IMG/VR virus record: IMGVR_UViG_2526164652_000007 | DNA length: 7,979 nucleotides | Source: a virus | Taxonomy: Duplodnaviria; Heunggongvirae; Uroviricota; Caudoviricetes | Direction: 5' to 3' (one strand) | Part shown: in pieces, positions 5,928-7,979 of the stretch | Layout: each line of letters starts with the position of its first letter | How positions within the stretch are numbered: the stretch's first letter is position 1 | Translations under genes and position numbers: made by a program | Notes under the pieces: model-generated | What the model was told of the DNA's origin: nothing | The model's input: only the letters and a program-made list of their open reading frames with translations | Databases searched by the model: none

Positions 5928-6833
5928 TTAAGCAGCCATCTGATGATATTTTTCCCTGAAGGCTGCCGGGGAGATATTCCCCAGACGAGAGTGACGACGC
6001 TGACGATTGTAGAAAATCTCAATGTATTCCCGTATTACTGAGATGGCTTCATCCCGGTTATTAAAACGATAGTGGCTCAGGCTCTCATTTTTCAGCGTTC
6101 CCCAGAAGCTTTCCATCGGAGCGTTGTCGTAACAGTTACCTTTACGCGACATTGATGTTTTCAGACCAAACTGCTCCTGTATGACCCGGTAATCGTATGC
6201 GCAGTACTGTGAACCTCGATCAGAGTGGTGGATTAGCCCGGCAGGTGGGCGCTGGCTCCTGAGCGCCATAAACAGGGCTTTACCTGTCAGCTCTTTTGTC
6301 ATGCGCTCTCCCATGGCGTAGCCGACAATTTCACACGTATAAACATCTTTGATGCCAGCGAGGTACAACCATCCCTCCTGTGTGGCAACATACGTCAGGT
6401 CCGCCACCCAGACCTGATTTGGTGCTGTAGGAGCGAACGTCTGGTTCAGCAGATTTGGCGCAACTGGCAGATTGTGGTTCGGGTTCGTAGTCGCTCTGAA
6501 CTTGCGTTTCTGCTTACAGCGTAGCCTTAGCTCCTTACGAAGACGTGCCAGTCGGTCACGACCAACGATGATGCCATTCTCTGCCAGCTCCGTCTGGAGC
6601 CGCCGGGTTCCATATGTTTCGCGAGTGCGGATATGTGCCACCTTAATCTCCAGTTTTAGCCGCTCATCACTTTGTTTTCTGTCTGAGGGTTCATGCTGTA
6701 CCCAGTTGTAATAACCGCTCCTGGATACACCAAATACCTGACACATCGCTTCAATGGGAAATTGTTGTCGCCATTGTTCGATTAACGCGTATTTTTCAGC
6801 GACTCCTGTGCAAAATACGCTGTTGCTTTTTTT
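5928..6833 (-). CDS. IS600-like OrfB (DDE transposase), expressed as OrfAB by -1 frameshift near 6825-6833
   Basis: The -1 frame is open from the slippery site to stop TAA (5930-5928). It contains the DDE-type motifs WVADLTY, HSDRGSQY and CYDNAPMESFW and the C-terminus ...NRQRRHSRLGNISPAAFREKYHQMAA. Confidence 0.8.
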   Translation of the reverse strand, partial: KKSNSVFCTGVAEKYALIEQWRQQFPIEAMCQVFGVSRSGYYNWVQHEPSDRKQSDERLKLEIKVAHIRTRETYGTRRLQTELAENGIIVGRDRLARLRKELRLRCKQKRKFRATTNPNHNLPVAPNLLNQTFAPTAPNQVWVADLTYVATQEGWLYLAGIKDVYTCEIVGYAMGERMTKELTGKALFMALRSQRPPAGLIHHSDRGSQYCAYDYRVIQEQFGLKTSMSRKGNCYDNAPMESFWGTLKNESLSHYRFNNRDEAISVIREYIEIFYNRQRRHSRLGNISPAAFREKYHQMAA

Positions 6834-7084
6834 AATATATCTCGCTCAAGGCGAGCTTCATTTAACGCCTTACGCAGTTGCAGAATTTCAGATTCCAGTT
6901 CAGCCAGCGTGCGGGAACCAGGAGTACCGAGCCCTTTTCTGGCGGCGGTAACCCATTGTCCTAAAGTGCCTTCAGGAAGGGATAATCGGGAAGCGCCTTC
7001 ACTGATCGAAAGTTGATTTTCAAGAACCGTTCTGACAGCTTCGGCTTTGAACTCTTTAGAGTAACGTTGGGTTTTTCTGCTCAT
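6782..7084 (-). CDS. IS600-like OrfA (HTH), 100 aa
   Basis: ATG at 7084-7082 (minus); MSRKTQRYSKEFKAEAVRTVLENQLSISEGASRLSLPEGTLGQWV...RDILKKATAYFAQESLKNTR has the HTH plus leucine-zipper layout of IS3-family OrfA. Confidence 0.85.
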   Translation of the reverse strand: MSRKTQRYSKEFKAEAVRTVLENQLSISEGASRLSLPEGTLGQWVTAARKGLGTPGSRTLAELESEILQLRKALNEARLERDILKKATAYFAQESLKNTR

Positions 7085-7267
7085 TATTAGCTCCTTCTGA
7101 TGCCATTCTATTTCAGGAAGGAGTGTCCGTTAAACTCAGGCTACCTCACCTTTAGACTAAAGAGTTTGTAACGCTATGTAAGTGATTTTTTCTGGTTTAG
7201 ATATTTATATGTCCGGCCAAATTGAGGTGTGTTTAAATGTAATTGCACATTGATTGTAGGAGGAATA

Positions 7268-7447
7268 ATGAAAAACGCATTGCAGTTTTTGTTTGTTGCG
7301 TTCTGGTTGTTCGCATCATGTATGCCCATCATCTTCACAGCAAGGTATATGGAAAAAGTTGATGTTTTGATATTAATATTTGGATATATAAATGCCCTTT
7401 TTTTAGGGGTGTTCATGGCGGTCATGTGCATTGAATACTGGCGGTAA
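7268..7447 (+). CDS. small membrane protein (59 aa, two predicted transmembrane helices), unknown function
   Basis: GGAGG SD (7259-7263) 4 nt before ATG 7268; stop TAA 7445-7447. MKNALQFLFVAFWLFASCMPIIFTARYMEKVDVLILIFGYINALFLGVFMAVMCIEYWR has two hydrophobic stretches. AT-rich. The supplied ORF 7229..7447 is the same frame with a longer N-terminus. Confidence 0.5.
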   Translation: MKNALQFLFVAFWLFASCMPIIFTARYMEKVDVLILIFGYINALFLGVFMAVMCIEYWR

Positions 7448-7781
7448 ATACAGCGAACTCCATTGGTTTAGTTGGATATTTACTGTGCTGGACAAAAACG
7501 GTTTGCGGGGAAATCTTAGTTAAGTAGAATGACTGCGGGTGCTTGAGGCTATCTGCCTCGGGCACGAACACCAACGGCAGGTAGAGAAAAGCCCCAGTTA
7601 ACATTACGCGTCCTGCAAGACGCTTAACATTAATCTGAGGCCAATTTCATGCCAGACACATGTAGGTTAGCCTCTTACGTGCCGAAAGGCAAGGAGAAGC
7701 AGGCTATTGTTAACACCAAGCTGTAATGTCCCCTTTGAATCATTCTAAAATGTCCCCAGACAATTCTCTGGGGGATTTTTC

Positions 7782-7979
7782 ATGATCAAAGAGACTGTTA
7801 CGATGAGTCATAAGGAACTCCACCGACTTCAGATTATTCAGGAGTCAATTAATCGACATATTACTCAGGAACAAGCTGCGGCACGCATTGGCATTTCTAT
7901 TCGGCAGGTTAAACGTCTGGTGCAACGGTATAGAAATGAAGGGCCTTCTGGTCTGGTTTCCCACCGACGTGTGAGGTAG
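7782..7979 (+). CDS. 65-aa helix-turn-helix protein resembling the N-terminus of ISNCY/IS481-type transposases; ends at an amber codon on the last 3 bases of the window
   Basis: ATG 7782 (or 7803) with GGGGGA upstream; ...MSHKELHRLQIIQESINRHITQEQAAARIGISIRQVKRLVQRYRNEGPSGLVSHRRVR then TAG 7977-7979. The HTH-like pattern resembles transposase N-termini I recall. Whether it is a complete small gene, an OrfA or a nonsense-truncated transposase cannot be decided from the window. Confidence 0.4.
   Translation: MIKETVTMSHKELHRLQIIQESINRHITQEQAAARIGISIRQVKRLVQRYRNEGPSGLVSHRRVR

What the first reader, a model, noticed from the sequence alone, without database searches (positions are those of the whole stretch)
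7460..7979. Structured leader and RBS-sequestering hairpin ahead of an HTH ORF that stops at an amber codon on the window edge
A hairpin (stem TCCCCAG 7753-7759 / CTGGGGG 7768-7774, then ATTTTTC) sits directly before ATG 7782 and contains the likely SD; IS elements use this arrangement to block read-through activation of transposase. Upstream there is a plus-strand-specific 11-bp stem with two G-U pairs (7539-7549 / 7555-7565) and a 9-bp direct repeat TTAACATTA flanking a short palindrome (7597-7631). The ORF resembles transposase HTH N-termini but ends after 65 codons. It may be an IS left end with a nonsense-truncated transposase, an OrfA-type regulator, or an sRNA-plus-regulator locus.
Basis: partly seen in the sequence, partly recalled or inferred. 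Interest (0 to 1): 0.4.

Follow-up and report, generated by a model that had tools for sequence, protein, structure and literature searches.

The report
Orphaned hok/sok leader, hok-targeting transposon end
The stretch is not one regulatory unit: it is the leftover control region of a small toxin gene (hok/sok), cut off at the toxin's start codon by a transposon that repeatedly lands at exactly this spot in many different hok genes and, in complete copies, carries the relBE toxin-antitoxin pair, and that is itself cut in this window by a second insertion sequence (IS600), which supplies the 'amber codon'.

Summary

1. The repeat and palindrome lie in the Sok-target region.
2. From 7708 on is the left end of an IS1202-family (ISEsa1-like) transposon: a 26-bp IRL, two AATGTCCCC sites, an SD-sequestering hairpin and transposase codons 1-63.
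3. 7972-7979 (TGAGGTAG) is the first 8 bp of IS600. Its TAG is the 'amber codon', and five public contigs continue into IS600.

Complete copies elsewhere are 3.3-7.7 kb, end TGT...ACA, make 15-16-bp target duplications (GGAGAAGCAGGCTAT, the hok SD up to AT of the ATG) and carry relBE just inside the right end. The hokD/relF gene of the classical relBEF operon is therefore the displaced hok ORF, and this window holds its lost leader. 35 of 45 distinct left flanks involve the hok SD-ATG site, so the transposon appears to target hok. I found no description of this in the papers searched.

In this window everything is a dead remnant. The hairpin's role in blocking read-through translation is plausible but inferred.

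The parts
5886..7149 (-). Complete IS600 (IS3 family, 1264 bp) with orfA at 6782-7084 and orfB at 5928-6746. Its IRL end faces the finding region.
   Evidence: It is 99.8-99.9% identical over 1264 bp to elements annotated 'IS3-like element IS600 family transposase'. ORFs are and the end sequences.
7151..7707 (+). Prophage DNA upstream of, and including, the hokD-type leader. It is collinear with an intact, uninterrupted hokD locus in E. coli 1EC213.
   Evidence: It is 99.3% identical to L002 2501-3056, where the hokD CDS starts at 3055. The match ends after 'AT' of the hok ATG.
7525..7530 (+). Candidate -10 (TAGAAT) of the hok promoter, with a possible -35 TTTGCG at 7502-7507. The transcript start is inferred at about 7537.
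   Evidence: Read directly from the sequence. It lies 6 nt upstream of the first position of the Rfam model match. The consensus promoter scan did not call it, so this is inference only.
7537..7707 (+). [quoted passage not shown] It is orphaned: no hok ORF follows.
   Evidence: Rfam RF01794 'sok', 99.8 bits against a gathering score of 59, E 2.7e-22, full model length 1-157. It is homologous to 11 other Rfam-qualified leaders and shares their consensus structure. Fold z -3.9.
7539..7565 (+).
   Evidence: -20.9 kcal/mol, z -5.2. The 5' block GG(C/T)GCTTGAGGCT...GCCTC is conserved in all 12 aligned leaders. Its identity as the tac / metastable 5' hairpin comes from my own knowledge of hok mRNA folding.
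7598..7632 (+). Hairpin region containing the TTAACATTA direct repeat and a 16-nt palindromic insert. It corresponds to the stem-loop that is Sok's target on the + strand and, on the - strand, the 3' stem-loop of Sok RNA.
   Evidence: Fold z -4.25. In the Rfam alignment the palindrome is an insertion into a consensus hairpin and is present only in this leader type. The assignment to Sok is by analogy with R1 hok/sok (own knowledge).
7649..7726 (+). Truncated mok-type ORF. ATG 7649 is in frame with the former hok ATG; the ORF now runs into the transposon and stops at TAA 7724-7726 (25 codons).
   Evidence: Read from the sequence. In the intact locus, 19 codons plus the 51 hokD codons make 70 codons, which matches the 'about 70 codons' ancestral ORF mentioned in PMC6379469.
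7693..7707 (+). Left copy of the 15-bp target-site duplication GGAGAAGCAGGCTAT (hok SD through 'AT' of the start codon).
   Evidence: The same 15-mer follows the transposon's right end in E. coli IAI1 (L001 12611-12625) and occurs once in the empty site of 1EC213.
7708..7733 (+). Left terminal inverted repeat (IRL) of the IS1202-family transposon: TGTTAACACCAAGCTGTAATGTCCCC.
   Evidence: Flanks in independent copies diverge exactly here. It matches the reverse complement of the right end, TGTCAACGCAAAGCAGAAGTGTCACC, at about 19 of 26 positions. The TGT terminus is typical of the family (PMC10132070).
7724..7757 (+). Two direct copies of (T/A)AATGTCCCC, at 7724-7733 and 7748-7757, 24 nt apart. 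They are presumed transposase-binding sites.
   Evidence: Both are conserved in relatives down to 53-64% protein identity. A second internal binding site near each end is described for the family in PMC10132070. Binding was not tested.
7753..7774 (+). Hairpin that pairs the inner binding-site UCCCCAG with CUGGGGG (the SD), followed by AUUUUUC and AUG.
   Evidence: Equivalent pairing is seen in 24 of 24 relatives. RNAalifold gave no formal consensus or covariation.
7782..7971 (+). Transposase codons 1-63 plus 1 nt (HTH domain only).
   Evidence: Pfam HTH_28 5e-13 and HTH_23. The intact 446-aa homologue hits NCBIfam NF033594 'ISNCY family transposase' at 462 bits against a cutoff of 250. Identity with E. 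coli IAI1 continues up to 7971.
7972..7979 (+). First 8 bp (TGAGGTAG) of a second IS600 copy. It supplies the last two codons and the TAG stop of the 65-codon ORF.
   Evidence: These 8 bp equal the reverse complement of the end of the IS600 copy at 7142-7149. In five public contigs carrying the identical ORF, the sequence continues TGAGGTAGCCTGAGTTTAACGGACACTCC...ATGAGCAGAAAA, which is IS600 orfA.

Best explanation
Window 7460-7979 is a junction of three selfish elements, not a leader plus its gene.

[quoted passage not shown] It holds the 5' hairpin, the mok start, the Sok-target region, the expected antisense sok gene, and the hok Shine-Dalgarno sequence.

(2) At 7707/7708 an IS1202-family (ISEsa1-like) DDE transposon inserted into the hok SD-ATG, duplicating 15 bp (GGAGAAGCAGGCTAT). 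Complete copies are 3.3-7.7 kb, end TGT...ACA and carry relBE about 60 bp inside the right end. The cut-off hok ORF therefore lies directly downstream of relE, which is the relB-relE-hokD(relF) 'operon' of the E. coli Qin prophage. The element shows strong target preference for this hok site and one preferred orientation, so its transposase gene normally sits downstream of the hok promoter. The conserved hairpin that pairs the inner transposase-binding site with the transposase SD most likely keeps read-through transcripts untranslated (inferred).

(3) An IS600 copy inserted after transposase codon 63. Its terminal TGAGGTAG creates the TAG. In a near-identical complete genome (99.9% over 6.2 kb), the rest of the transposon, relBE-hokD and neighbouring chromosome have been deleted next to that IS600.

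In this genome the locus is therefore a non-functional remnant. At most it makes Sok RNA, a truncated mok transcript and a 65-aa HTH peptide.
For: hok leader:
- Rfam RF01794 hit at 99.8 bits over the full model length.
- 99.3% identity to the DNA directly upstream of an intact hokD CDS, ending at 'AT' of its ATG.
- Shared consensus structure with 11 other Rfam-qualified leaders.

Transposon:
- The break in similarity falls exactly at TGTTAAC in independent copies.
- The right end ...CTGCTTTGCGTTGACA lies between relE and hokD in IAI1 and between relE and a hok ORF on IncHI2 plasmid pEh27_2. Each is flanked by a matching 15-bp duplication.
- Further complete copies of 3.3, 4.6 and 7.7 kb have 15-16-bp duplications.
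- Simple 1.44-1.6 kb relatives share the same right-end sequence and make 15-17-bp duplications.
- RelB is 100% and RelE >=98% identical in all 10 complete copies found with the exact IRL and IRR strings of this element; these lie at five different 15/16-bp duplicated target sequences (Qin hokD-type, IncHI2 hok, two R1-like hok variants and L097, whose right flank is not hok).
- NF033594 at 462 bits for the 446-aa transposase.

Targeting:
- 31 of 45 distinct 45-nt left flanks are hok leaders of many sequence types, with the junction 14-17 nt from the first G of GGAG.
- Four more flanks are tandem, nested or reversed uses of the same hok site.
- 11 of 18 sampled loci have a full Rfam hok-leader hit ending at the IRL.

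IS600:
-.

Hairpin:
-.
Against: - Nothing here shows expression. The hok and sok promoters were not called by the consensus scan and are assigned by position and by analogy.
- The hairpin's two arms are each conserved for another likely reason (a protein-binding site and an SD).
- Some 'distinct' flanks differ by only 1-2 nt and may be one event, so the number of independent hok insertions is nearer 12-15 than 31.
- 10 of 45 flanks are not hok, so the specificity is a strong preference, not absolute.
- About 1.62 kb from the left end there is an internal IRR-like palindrome. A simple 1.6-kb IS form (ISEsa1 as listed, 1609 bp) may therefore also exist.
Confidence: 0.9

Rival explanations
1. The whole of 7460-7979 is the left end of one IS. 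The upstream hairpins are part of its regulatory leader, and the transposase gene was killed by a nonsense (amber) mutation.
For: An IS-type left end, an SD-containing hairpin and an HTH transposase N-terminus are indeed present.
Against: In independent copies the element begins at 7708, and everything to the left varies from copy to copy. 7537-7707 is a hok leader by covariance model and by 99% identity to an intact hokD locus. The TAG belongs to IS600's terminal TGAGGTAG, and five contigs continue into IS600.
Confidence: 0.03
2. The 65-codon ORF is a functional small HTH protein, either an OrfA-like or truncated-transposase repressor of related transposon ends, maintained by selection. The leader plus hairpin would control it.
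For: The ORF keeps its SD, its ATG and the complete first HTH. The identical 65-aa product is encoded on at least 5 contigs. Truncated transposases act as inhibitors in other systems (own knowledge: Tn5 Inh, IS1 InsA).
Against: Relatives encode one continuous 446-aa ORF with no frameshift site. The truncation point is an IS600 insertion in a lineage (most likely Shigella, inferred) with many IS600 copies (11-15 per plasmid record), next to a large deletion. The contigs sharing the ORF are near-identical DNA (98.3-100%), so their agreement says nothing about selection.
Confidence: 0.06
3. The recurrent hok-leader/transposon junction does not reflect target-site choice. One ancestral insertion in a hok gene has spread to other hok loci by homologous recombination within the conserved hok flanks.
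For: hok loci share conserved blocks on both sides of the junction, which could support recombination. Several flank types differ only slightly.
Against: The duplicated 15-16-mers differ between loci and match on both sides within each locus: GGAGAAGCAGGCTAT, GGAGAAGAAGGCCAT, GGAGATGTATGGGTCC and GGAGAAGAAGGCCATG. The junction offset varies from 14 to 17 nt. One insertion is 11 nt inside a hokE-type ORF but, like the other hok junctions, 15 nt from the first G of the SD (GGATATG). One insertion is reversed at the same 15-mer. Tandem insertions reuse the duplicated site (L164). A diverged relative (72% DNA identity) shows a clean 15/16-bp duplication at a non-hok site.
Confidence: 0.08

Closest known systems
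[quoted passage not shown]
   Same: The window has the leader architecture: a 5' GGGUGCUUGAGGC hairpin, a mok start, a Sok-target stem-loop and an SD in a GCC-GAAA-GGC hairpin. It has a full-length Rfam RF01794 match. As in E. coli K-12, where hok loci are disturbed by nearby IS elements (own knowledge: Pedersen & Gerdes 1999), this locus has been hit by mobile DNA.
   Different: No Hok ORF follows (one search found none near the window-type junctions). The leader is separated from its toxin gene by a transposon inserted inside the SD-ATG. It also carries a 16-nt palindromic insert in the Sok-target hairpin.
relBEF (relB-relE-hokD) operon of the E. coli Qin prophage
   Same: The displaced partner of this leader is hokD/relF. 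In IAI1 the same leader-transposon junction lies 3.3 kb upstream of relBE-hokD. It is already published that plasmid-derived relBE integrated into an ancestral ~70-codon hokD ORF (Ramisetty & Santhosh 2016, as cited in PMC6379469).
   Different: The papers I could read do not name a vehicle, ends or a target duplication. Here relBE is shown to be cargo of a TIR-bounded transposon with a 15-bp duplication. K-12 itself has lost the leader, the IRL and most of the transposase gene (only ydfW/ydfX remain). The window's genome has lost the relBE-hokD side instead.
IS1202 family (ISNCY), ISEsa1 and the ISTde1 subgroup
   Same: The transposase has HTH plus DDE (rve) domains and hits NF033594. The ends are TGT...ACA with imperfect ~26-bp TIRs and a second internal binding site. 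The 15-17-bp duplications match those reported for the ISTde1 subgroup.
   Different: ISEsa1 is listed as 1609 bp, TIR 15/22, 'no TSD detected' (PMC10132070). The copies studied here are 3.3-7.7 kb with cargo and clear 15-16-bp duplications. Their target is hok, not a random site or a dif site.
ISAjo2/ISAba32 subgroup of the IS1202 family (pdif/dif-targeting IS), and Tn7
   Same: Both show oriented, site-specific insertion at a fixed distance from a conserved short DNA feature by a TnsB-like transposase.
   Different: The target here is the translation-initiation region of a toxin gene rather than a XerC/D site or attTn7. The duplication is 15-16 bp rather than 5 bp. No Tn7-type targeting proteins are evident. 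The recognition determinant is unknown.
Read-through protection hairpins of IS10/IS50-type elements
   Same: A stem-loop formed between terminal-repeat sequence and the transposase SD/AUG region, positioned so that transcripts entering from outside can form it (own knowledge of IS10 'fold-back inhibition').
   Different: This has not been shown experimentally for the family. A native promoter that would start inside the hairpin is only a guess (a conserved TAAAAT at 7746-7751). A T-run after the stem, which gives the terminator look, exists only in the enterobacterial clade.

Membership tests
[quoted passage not shown] | hok mRNA leader matching the family covariance model above the curated threshold | tested here: met
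   RF01794, 99.8 bits against a gathering score of 59, model positions 1-157 of 157, window 7537-7708 +.
[quoted passage not shown] | Hok/Gef toxin ORF (PF01848) immediately downstream of the leader | tested here: not met
   After 7707 comes transposon DNA. tblastn with six Hok proteins finds no Hok ORF in the window or next to window-type junctions. The cognate ORF is 3.3 kb away in E. coli IAI1 (PF01848 1.2e-23) and is deleted in the complete genome L003. This is therefore a remnant, not a complete locus.
[quoted passage not shown] | mok-type upstream reading frame coupled to hok | tested here: met
   ATG 7649 is preceded by GAGG. It is in frame with hokD in the intact locus (70 codons) and is truncated here to 25 codons by the transposon.
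[quoted passage not shown] | Antisense Sok RNA gene with its own promoter | tested here: inconclusive
   The minus strand has TTGCCT-17 nt-TAACCT at the position where R1 has the sok promoter (own knowledge), and a stem-loop followed by GGGGCUUUUCUCU. The consensus scans did not call a promoter or a terminator there. No expression data are available.
IS1202 family (ISNCY) transposable element | Transposase of the family (HTH + DDE/rve; NCBIfam NF033594) | tested here: met
   The intact 446-aa homologue (94% aa identity to the E. coli CEA224S Qin-prophage copy of this transposase) scores 462 bits against a cutoff of 250 and has an rve_3 hit. The window itself keeps only residues 1-63, the HTH.
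IS1202 family (ISNCY) transposable element | Imperfect ~24-26-bp terminal inverted repeats ending 5'-TGT ... ACA-3', with a second internal repeat of the binding site | tested here: met
   IRL at 7708-7733. The IRR in complete copies is ...GGTGACACTTCTGCTTTGCGTTGACA, about 19 of 26 matching. Inner ATGTC sites lie about 24 nt in at both ends. The window holds only the left end.
IS1202 family (ISNCY) transposable element | Target-site duplication of subgroup-typical length | tested here: met
   Duplications of 15-16 bp in L001, L093, L097, L146, L169 and L059, and of 15-17 bp in simple relatives L071-L078. The window has only the left copy, 7693-7707.
IS600 (IS3 family) | Sequence identity to IS600, including its terminal repeat | tested here: met
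   5886-7149 is 99.8-99.9% identical to annotated IS600. 7972-7979 equals its first 8 nt, and five contigs with the same junction continue into IS600 orfA.
SD-sequestering / terminator-like hairpin guarding a transposase gene | Stable stem that includes the SD, conserved among relatives, with compensatory changes | tested here: inconclusive
   The stem is present, and pairing is predicted in 24 of 24 relatives with different stem extensions: CCCCAG/CUGGGG, CCCCG/CGGGG and CACC/GGUG. RNAalifold gave no consensus, and both arms are constrained for other reasons. No functional test was possible.

The most novel reading that the evidence does not exclude
The ISEsa1-like element is a dedicated 'hok hunter'. 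It is an IS1202-family transposon that recognises the SD-ATG region of hok type I toxin genes and inserts there in one orientation with a 15-bp duplication. This uncouples the toxin ORF from its mok/sok control and places its own type II toxin-antitoxin cargo (relBE; a TacAT-like pair in a diverged relative) directly upstream of the orphaned toxin. That would be the origin of the textbook relBEF operon, and it would mean that ISEsa1's listed boundaries ('1609 bp, no TSD') are incomplete. The orphaned leader may continue to make Sok RNA.
Probability: 0.7. Interest if true: 0.65.

Novelty: new variant of a known kind. Interest (0 to 1): 0.55.

Why it matters
For the window itself the result is clean-up. 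The 'structured leader, HTH ORF and amber codon' is genome wreckage of a kind typical of IS-rich Shigella genomes (my inference for this lineage): an orphaned hok/sok leader, a transposon stump and an IS600 end. It is not a new regulator.

The comparison needed to show this turned up something of wider interest.

- A member of the IS1202 family is known so far for dif/pdif targeting in one subgroup. This one repeatedly and precisely targets the translation start of hok toxin genes on plasmids and prophages across Enterobacteriaceae, and it carries relBE.
- This gives a concrete mechanism, with ends and a target duplication, for how relBE came to sit in front of hokD/relF in E. coli. It also explains why hokD lacks mok/sok.
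- It suggests the ISfinder definition of ISEsa1 needs revising.
- It offers a simple test system for how a TnsB-like transposase without Tn7-type helper proteins finds a specific site.
- It flags annotation artefacts: 'YdfW' is the transposase C-terminus, and a 'DUF5431' ORF on plasmids is the mok frame.

Tried and rejected
- An exact-match scan of genome contigs for the 22-nt junction TTCCCACCGACGTGTGAGGTAG gave 0 hits. I think this is because that collection holds one genome per species (my inference). The exact-protein look-up gave the continuation instead.
- I searched for an inverted repeat of the left end within about 2 kb downstream in IAI1 and 20 other loci and found no convincing partner. 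This at first suggested a truncated or asymmetric IS. It was resolved when the true right end was found beyond relE.
- I considered that the hok leader might be part of the mobile element. I rejected this because the leader is about 75% identical between copies whose transposon ends are about 99% identical, and because many unrelated leader types occur.
- I considered that 'TGTTAACACCAAGCTGTAA' might be a variant hok coding start. I rejected this because it is the conserved IRL in non-enterobacterial relatives.
- RNAalifold on 24 transposase 5' UTRs gave no consensus structure.
- phmmer of the transposase against PDB sequences gave no hit. The TnsB similarity therefore rests on PMC10132070 only.
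- The consensus promoter scan of 7400-7979 found nothing on either strand.
- A possible short motif (GGCAA just left of the duplicated 15-mer) is seen in hok targets and some non-hok targets. It is not consistent enough across the 10 non-hok flanks to claim.
- I could not obtain Ramisetty & Santhosh 2016 to see how precisely they defined the relBE integration.
Full report
**Observation**

- The stem TCCCCAG 7753-7759 / CTGGGGG 7768-7774, then ATTTTTC and ATG 7782, is present. It is the only terminator-like site the scan finds in 7400-7979: 8 pairs, a 6-nt loop and a T-run, against 0.5 +/- 0.8 sites expected. It folds at -14.5 kcal/mol, with z -2.3 in a 46-nt context and z -2.9 in a 93-nt context.
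- The 11-bp stem 7539-7549 / 7555-7565 with two G-U pairs folds at -20.9 kcal/mol, z -5.2, and is clearly weaker on the other strand.
It lies around a GCGTC/GACGC palindrome, z -4.25.
- The ORF 7782-7979 has 65 codons and ends in TAG on the last base of the window. It carries HTH_28 and HTH_23 domains.

**What the 'structured leader' is**

An Rfam scan of the window gives a full-length hit of RF01794 ('sok', the hok/sok leader model) at 7537-7708 on the + strand: 99.8 bits against a gathering score of 59, E 2.7e-22. The repeat and palindrome sit in a consensus hairpin of the model, with the 16-nt palindrome as an insertion.

Window 7151-7707 is 99.3% identical to the DNA just upstream of an intact, annotated hokD gene in a prophage of E. 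coli 1EC213. The match stops after 'AT' of that gene's ATG. A three-way alignment shows the intact site ...GGCAAGGAGAAGCAGGCTATGAAGCAG.... The window follows it up to GGAGAAGCAGGCTAT and then diverges.

An upstream ATG at 7649, preceded by GAGG, is in frame with hokD in the intact locus (19 + 51 = 70 codons). This is a mok-type frame. Here it runs into foreign DNA and stops at 7724-7726.

By position, a -10-like TAGAAT (7525-7530) precedes the leader. By analogy with R1 hok/sok (my own knowledge), the antisense sok promoter and the Sok stem-loop fall inside 7598-7690 on the minus strand. The consensus scans called none of these promoters, so they remain inferences.

**What starts at 7708**

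In E. coli IAI1 the same junction lies in the Qin prophage. It is followed by a degenerate 'IS1202-like element ISEsa1 family transposase'. In strain CEA224S the reading frame is open for 446 codons. Copies 94% identical in protein are intact on Enterobacter, Raoultella and other plasmids. They hit NCBIfam NF033594, 'ISNCY family transposase', at 462 bits against a cutoff of 250, and have HTH and rve_3 domains.

Comparing copies in different contexts, similarity always begins at TGTTAACACC..., which is window 7708. The left end holds two direct (T/A)AATGTCCCC sites 24 nt apart, at 7724-7733 and 7748-7757. These sites are conserved in relatives down to about 55% protein identity from Hahella, Thiorhodospira and many MAGs. 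This fits the 'TGT end plus second internal binding site' layout described for the family (PMC10132070).

**The element is a transposon with cargo, and hok is its target**

No inverted-repeat partner lies within about 2 kb. On IncHI2 plasmid pEh27_2 the order is: hok leader | transposase - ISEsa2 - cytochrome b - CDF transporter - relB - relE | hok ORF. The relB and relE accessions are also found in E. coli Qin prophages: relB in IAI1 and CEA224S, and this relE in CEA224S (IAI1's relE differs by one residue).

The right end sits between relE and the hok ORF in both cases:
- IAI1: ...GGTGACACTTCTGCTTTGCGTTGACA | GGAGAAGCAGGCTAT | GAAG (hokD).
- Plasmid: ...GTTGACA | GGAGAAGAAGGCCAT | GAAA (hok).

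In each case the 15-mer is the same as the one that precedes the left end. The reverse complement of the right end matches the IRL at about 19 of 26 positions and has an inner ATGTC site at the same spacing.

Further complete copies have matching 15-16-bp duplications:
- 3.3 kb (Qin type).
- 4.6 kb (next to R1-like hok ORFs).
- 7.7 kb.
- A 4.27-kb diverged relative at a non-hok site, whose cargo includes a TacA/GNAT toxin-antitoxin pair.

Simple 1.44-1.6-kb relatives in Pseudomonadales and Nitrospirales MAGs end in the same ...TGCTTTGCGTTGACA and make 15-17-bp duplications. All ten complete copies found with the exact IRL and IRR strings of this element carry RelB (100% identical) and RelE (>=98%), ending about 60 bp from the right terminus. 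The relBE-right end-hok arrangement covers at least 80% of the query on 680 plasmid records.

**Target preference**

I pooled genome and metagenome loci that contain the exact IRL.
- There are 45 distinct 45-nt left flanks.
- 31 of them are hok leaders of many different sequence types. Their junction lies 14-17 nt (mostly 15-16) from the first G of the SD.
- Three more carry the hok 15-mer behind another element's right end (tandem or nested reuse, for example L164).
- One is the same site in reverse orientation, next to a Hok ORF.
- Ten are unrelated sequences.
- In 11 of 18 sampled loci a full Rfam hok-leader hit ends at the IRL.

Several observations make independent transposition a much better explanation than spread by homologous recombination: the duplicated 15-16-mers differ between loci but match within a locus, the offsets vary slightly, and one insertion lies inside a hokE-type ORF while keeping the usual 15-nt distance from the first G of the SD. 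Allowing for near-identical flanks, I estimate at least 12 independent hok insertions.

**Consequence**

The hokD/relF gene of the classical relB-relE-hokD operon is a hok ORF displaced from its mok/sok leader by this transposon. The window contains that leader. K-12 strains keep only the distal 261 bp of the transposase region (ydfW/ydfX) plus relBE-hokD, which is why hokD appears leaderless there.

It has been published that plasmid-derived relBE integrated into a ~70-codon ancestral hokD ORF (Ramisetty & Santhosh 2016, cited in PMC6379469). I could not read that paper.

The accessible literature on the IS1202 family lists ISEsa1 as 1609 bp with 'no TSD detected' (PMC10132070). It does not mention hok. 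A recent survey of Hok loci notes IS elements nearby but not this element. An internal IRR-like palindrome about 1.62 kb from the left end probably corresponds to the listed ISEsa1 boundary. That is an inference.

**The 'amber codon'**

Identity with IAI1 runs to 7971 (...CCCACCGACGTG). IAI1 continues GAAAGCGTCC... (GKRPNN...), whereas the window has TGAGGTAG. Window 5886-7149 is a complete IS600 on the minus strand (99.8-99.9% identity). Its end reads, reverse-complemented, TGAGGTAGCCTGAGTTTAACGG.

The exact 65-aa product is encoded on five public contigs, and in all of them the DNA continues TGAGGTAGCCTGAGTTTAACGGACACTCC...ATGAGCAGAAAA, which is IS600 orfA. The window is 99.9% identical over 6.2 kb to two of these contigs.

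In the complete genome CP026803.1, that IS600 is followed directly by mgtT/mgtS, an MFS gene, eamA and marBAR. The rest of the transposon, relBE-hokD and flanking chromosome are therefore deleted. The neighbouring accession CP026804.1 is a Shigella flexneri plasmid, so this is probably Shigella flexneri, by inference. The window simply ends 8 bp into a repeated IS.

**The hairpin**

In every one of 24 distinct 5' UTRs of the family, the minimum-free-energy fold pairs the inner site's UCCCC(UUU) with the G-rich SD. In the enterobacterial clade the stem is extended in different ways: CCCCAG/CUGGGG, CCCCG/CGGGG, CACC/GGUG and an A-U to G-C change at the base.

RNAalifold gave no consensus, and both arms are constrained by other functions, so covariation proof is lacking. 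A T-run after the stem occurs only in the enterobacterial clade, so SD sequestration is the conserved trait rather than termination.

Because the element lands downstream of the hok promoter in one orientation, a device that keeps read-through transcripts untranslated makes sense.

**Verdict**

In this genome the region is a remnant.

The comparative result looks new relative to the literature I could search and is directly testable. It is a hok-targeting IS1202-family transposon that carries relBE and explains relBEF.

Noticed in passing
window 4516-4705 (+): A full-length match to the Rfam sRNA STnc100 (RF02076, 132 bits, E 9e-30) lies in the prophage late region, downstream of the Q antiterminator and the tRNAs.
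   Followed up: no
window 3566-3641 and 3743-3819 (+): Two prophage tRNA genes follow the antitermination gene (2601-3422): tRNA with anticodon CAT (annotated tRNA-Ile in the E. coli 1EC213 homologue) and tRNA-Arg(TCT). A sub-threshold Trp_leader hit (27 bits) at 3423-3529 is probably chance.
   Followed up: no
window 5886-7149 (-) and 7972-7979 (+): Two IS600 copies lie in inverted orientation with their left ends facing each other. They bracket the 822-bp segment 7150-7971. No 3-bp duplication flanks the complete copy (GGC on one side, CTT on the other). The prophage order around it is rearranged relative to E. coli 1EC213: window 748-5885 matches L002 3605-8739, but window 7151-7707 matches L002 2501-3056. 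This points to IS600-mediated inversion or deletion. Two public contigs consist of just this segment plus IS600 ends.
   Followed up: partly
L001 10575-10724 (E. coli IAI1) and K-12 ydfW/ydfX: The annotated 'protein YdfW' is the C-terminal tail of the transposase reading frame; in CEA224S the ORF is open through it (446 codons). K-12 keeps only this distal 261-bp piece.
   Followed up: partly
L093 19862-19987 (-), plasmid pEh27_2: The ORF annotated 'DUF5431 family protein' downstream of relE overlaps a typical 52-aa Hok ORF (MKMPNQPIVLCILIV...) that is not annotated there. The reading frame offset by 1 nt from the Hok ORF, over the same stretch, hits PF17496 (DUF5431; profile positions 20-70 of 70), consistent with DUF5431 being the mok-type overlapping frame (my inference).
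   Followed up: partly
L010/L013/L016/L019/L023, about 1.61 kb from the transposon left end: An IS110-family element (ISEsa2) is inserted at the same position (GAGCGAGA|TATAGTC), inside a palindrome (AATGTCCGCT...AGCGGACATT) of the transposon. This is seen in copies that sit in different hok sites. Either ISEsa2 targets that palindrome, or the pair moves as a unit.
   Followed up: no
L124, L144 (metagenome contigs), left flank of the IRL: The hok 15/16-mer (GGAGAAAAAGGCTAT, GGAGTTGTATGGGTCC) is preceded by a different sequence ending ...GTGTGAACTTACACA. This looks like the right end of another TGT/ACA-type element, so a second element may use the same hok site. L164 shows a true tandem: right end | 15-mer | left end.
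   Followed up: no
L059 2927-7201 (Scandinavium hiltneri): A diverged relative (about 72% DNA identity) is 4.27 kb long, has a clean 15/16-bp duplication at a non-hok site, and carries a TacA-like antitoxin plus GNAT toxin pair next to its right end, along with two other enzymes. A type II toxin-antitoxin pair beside the right end may be a recurring cargo position in this group.
   Followed up: partly
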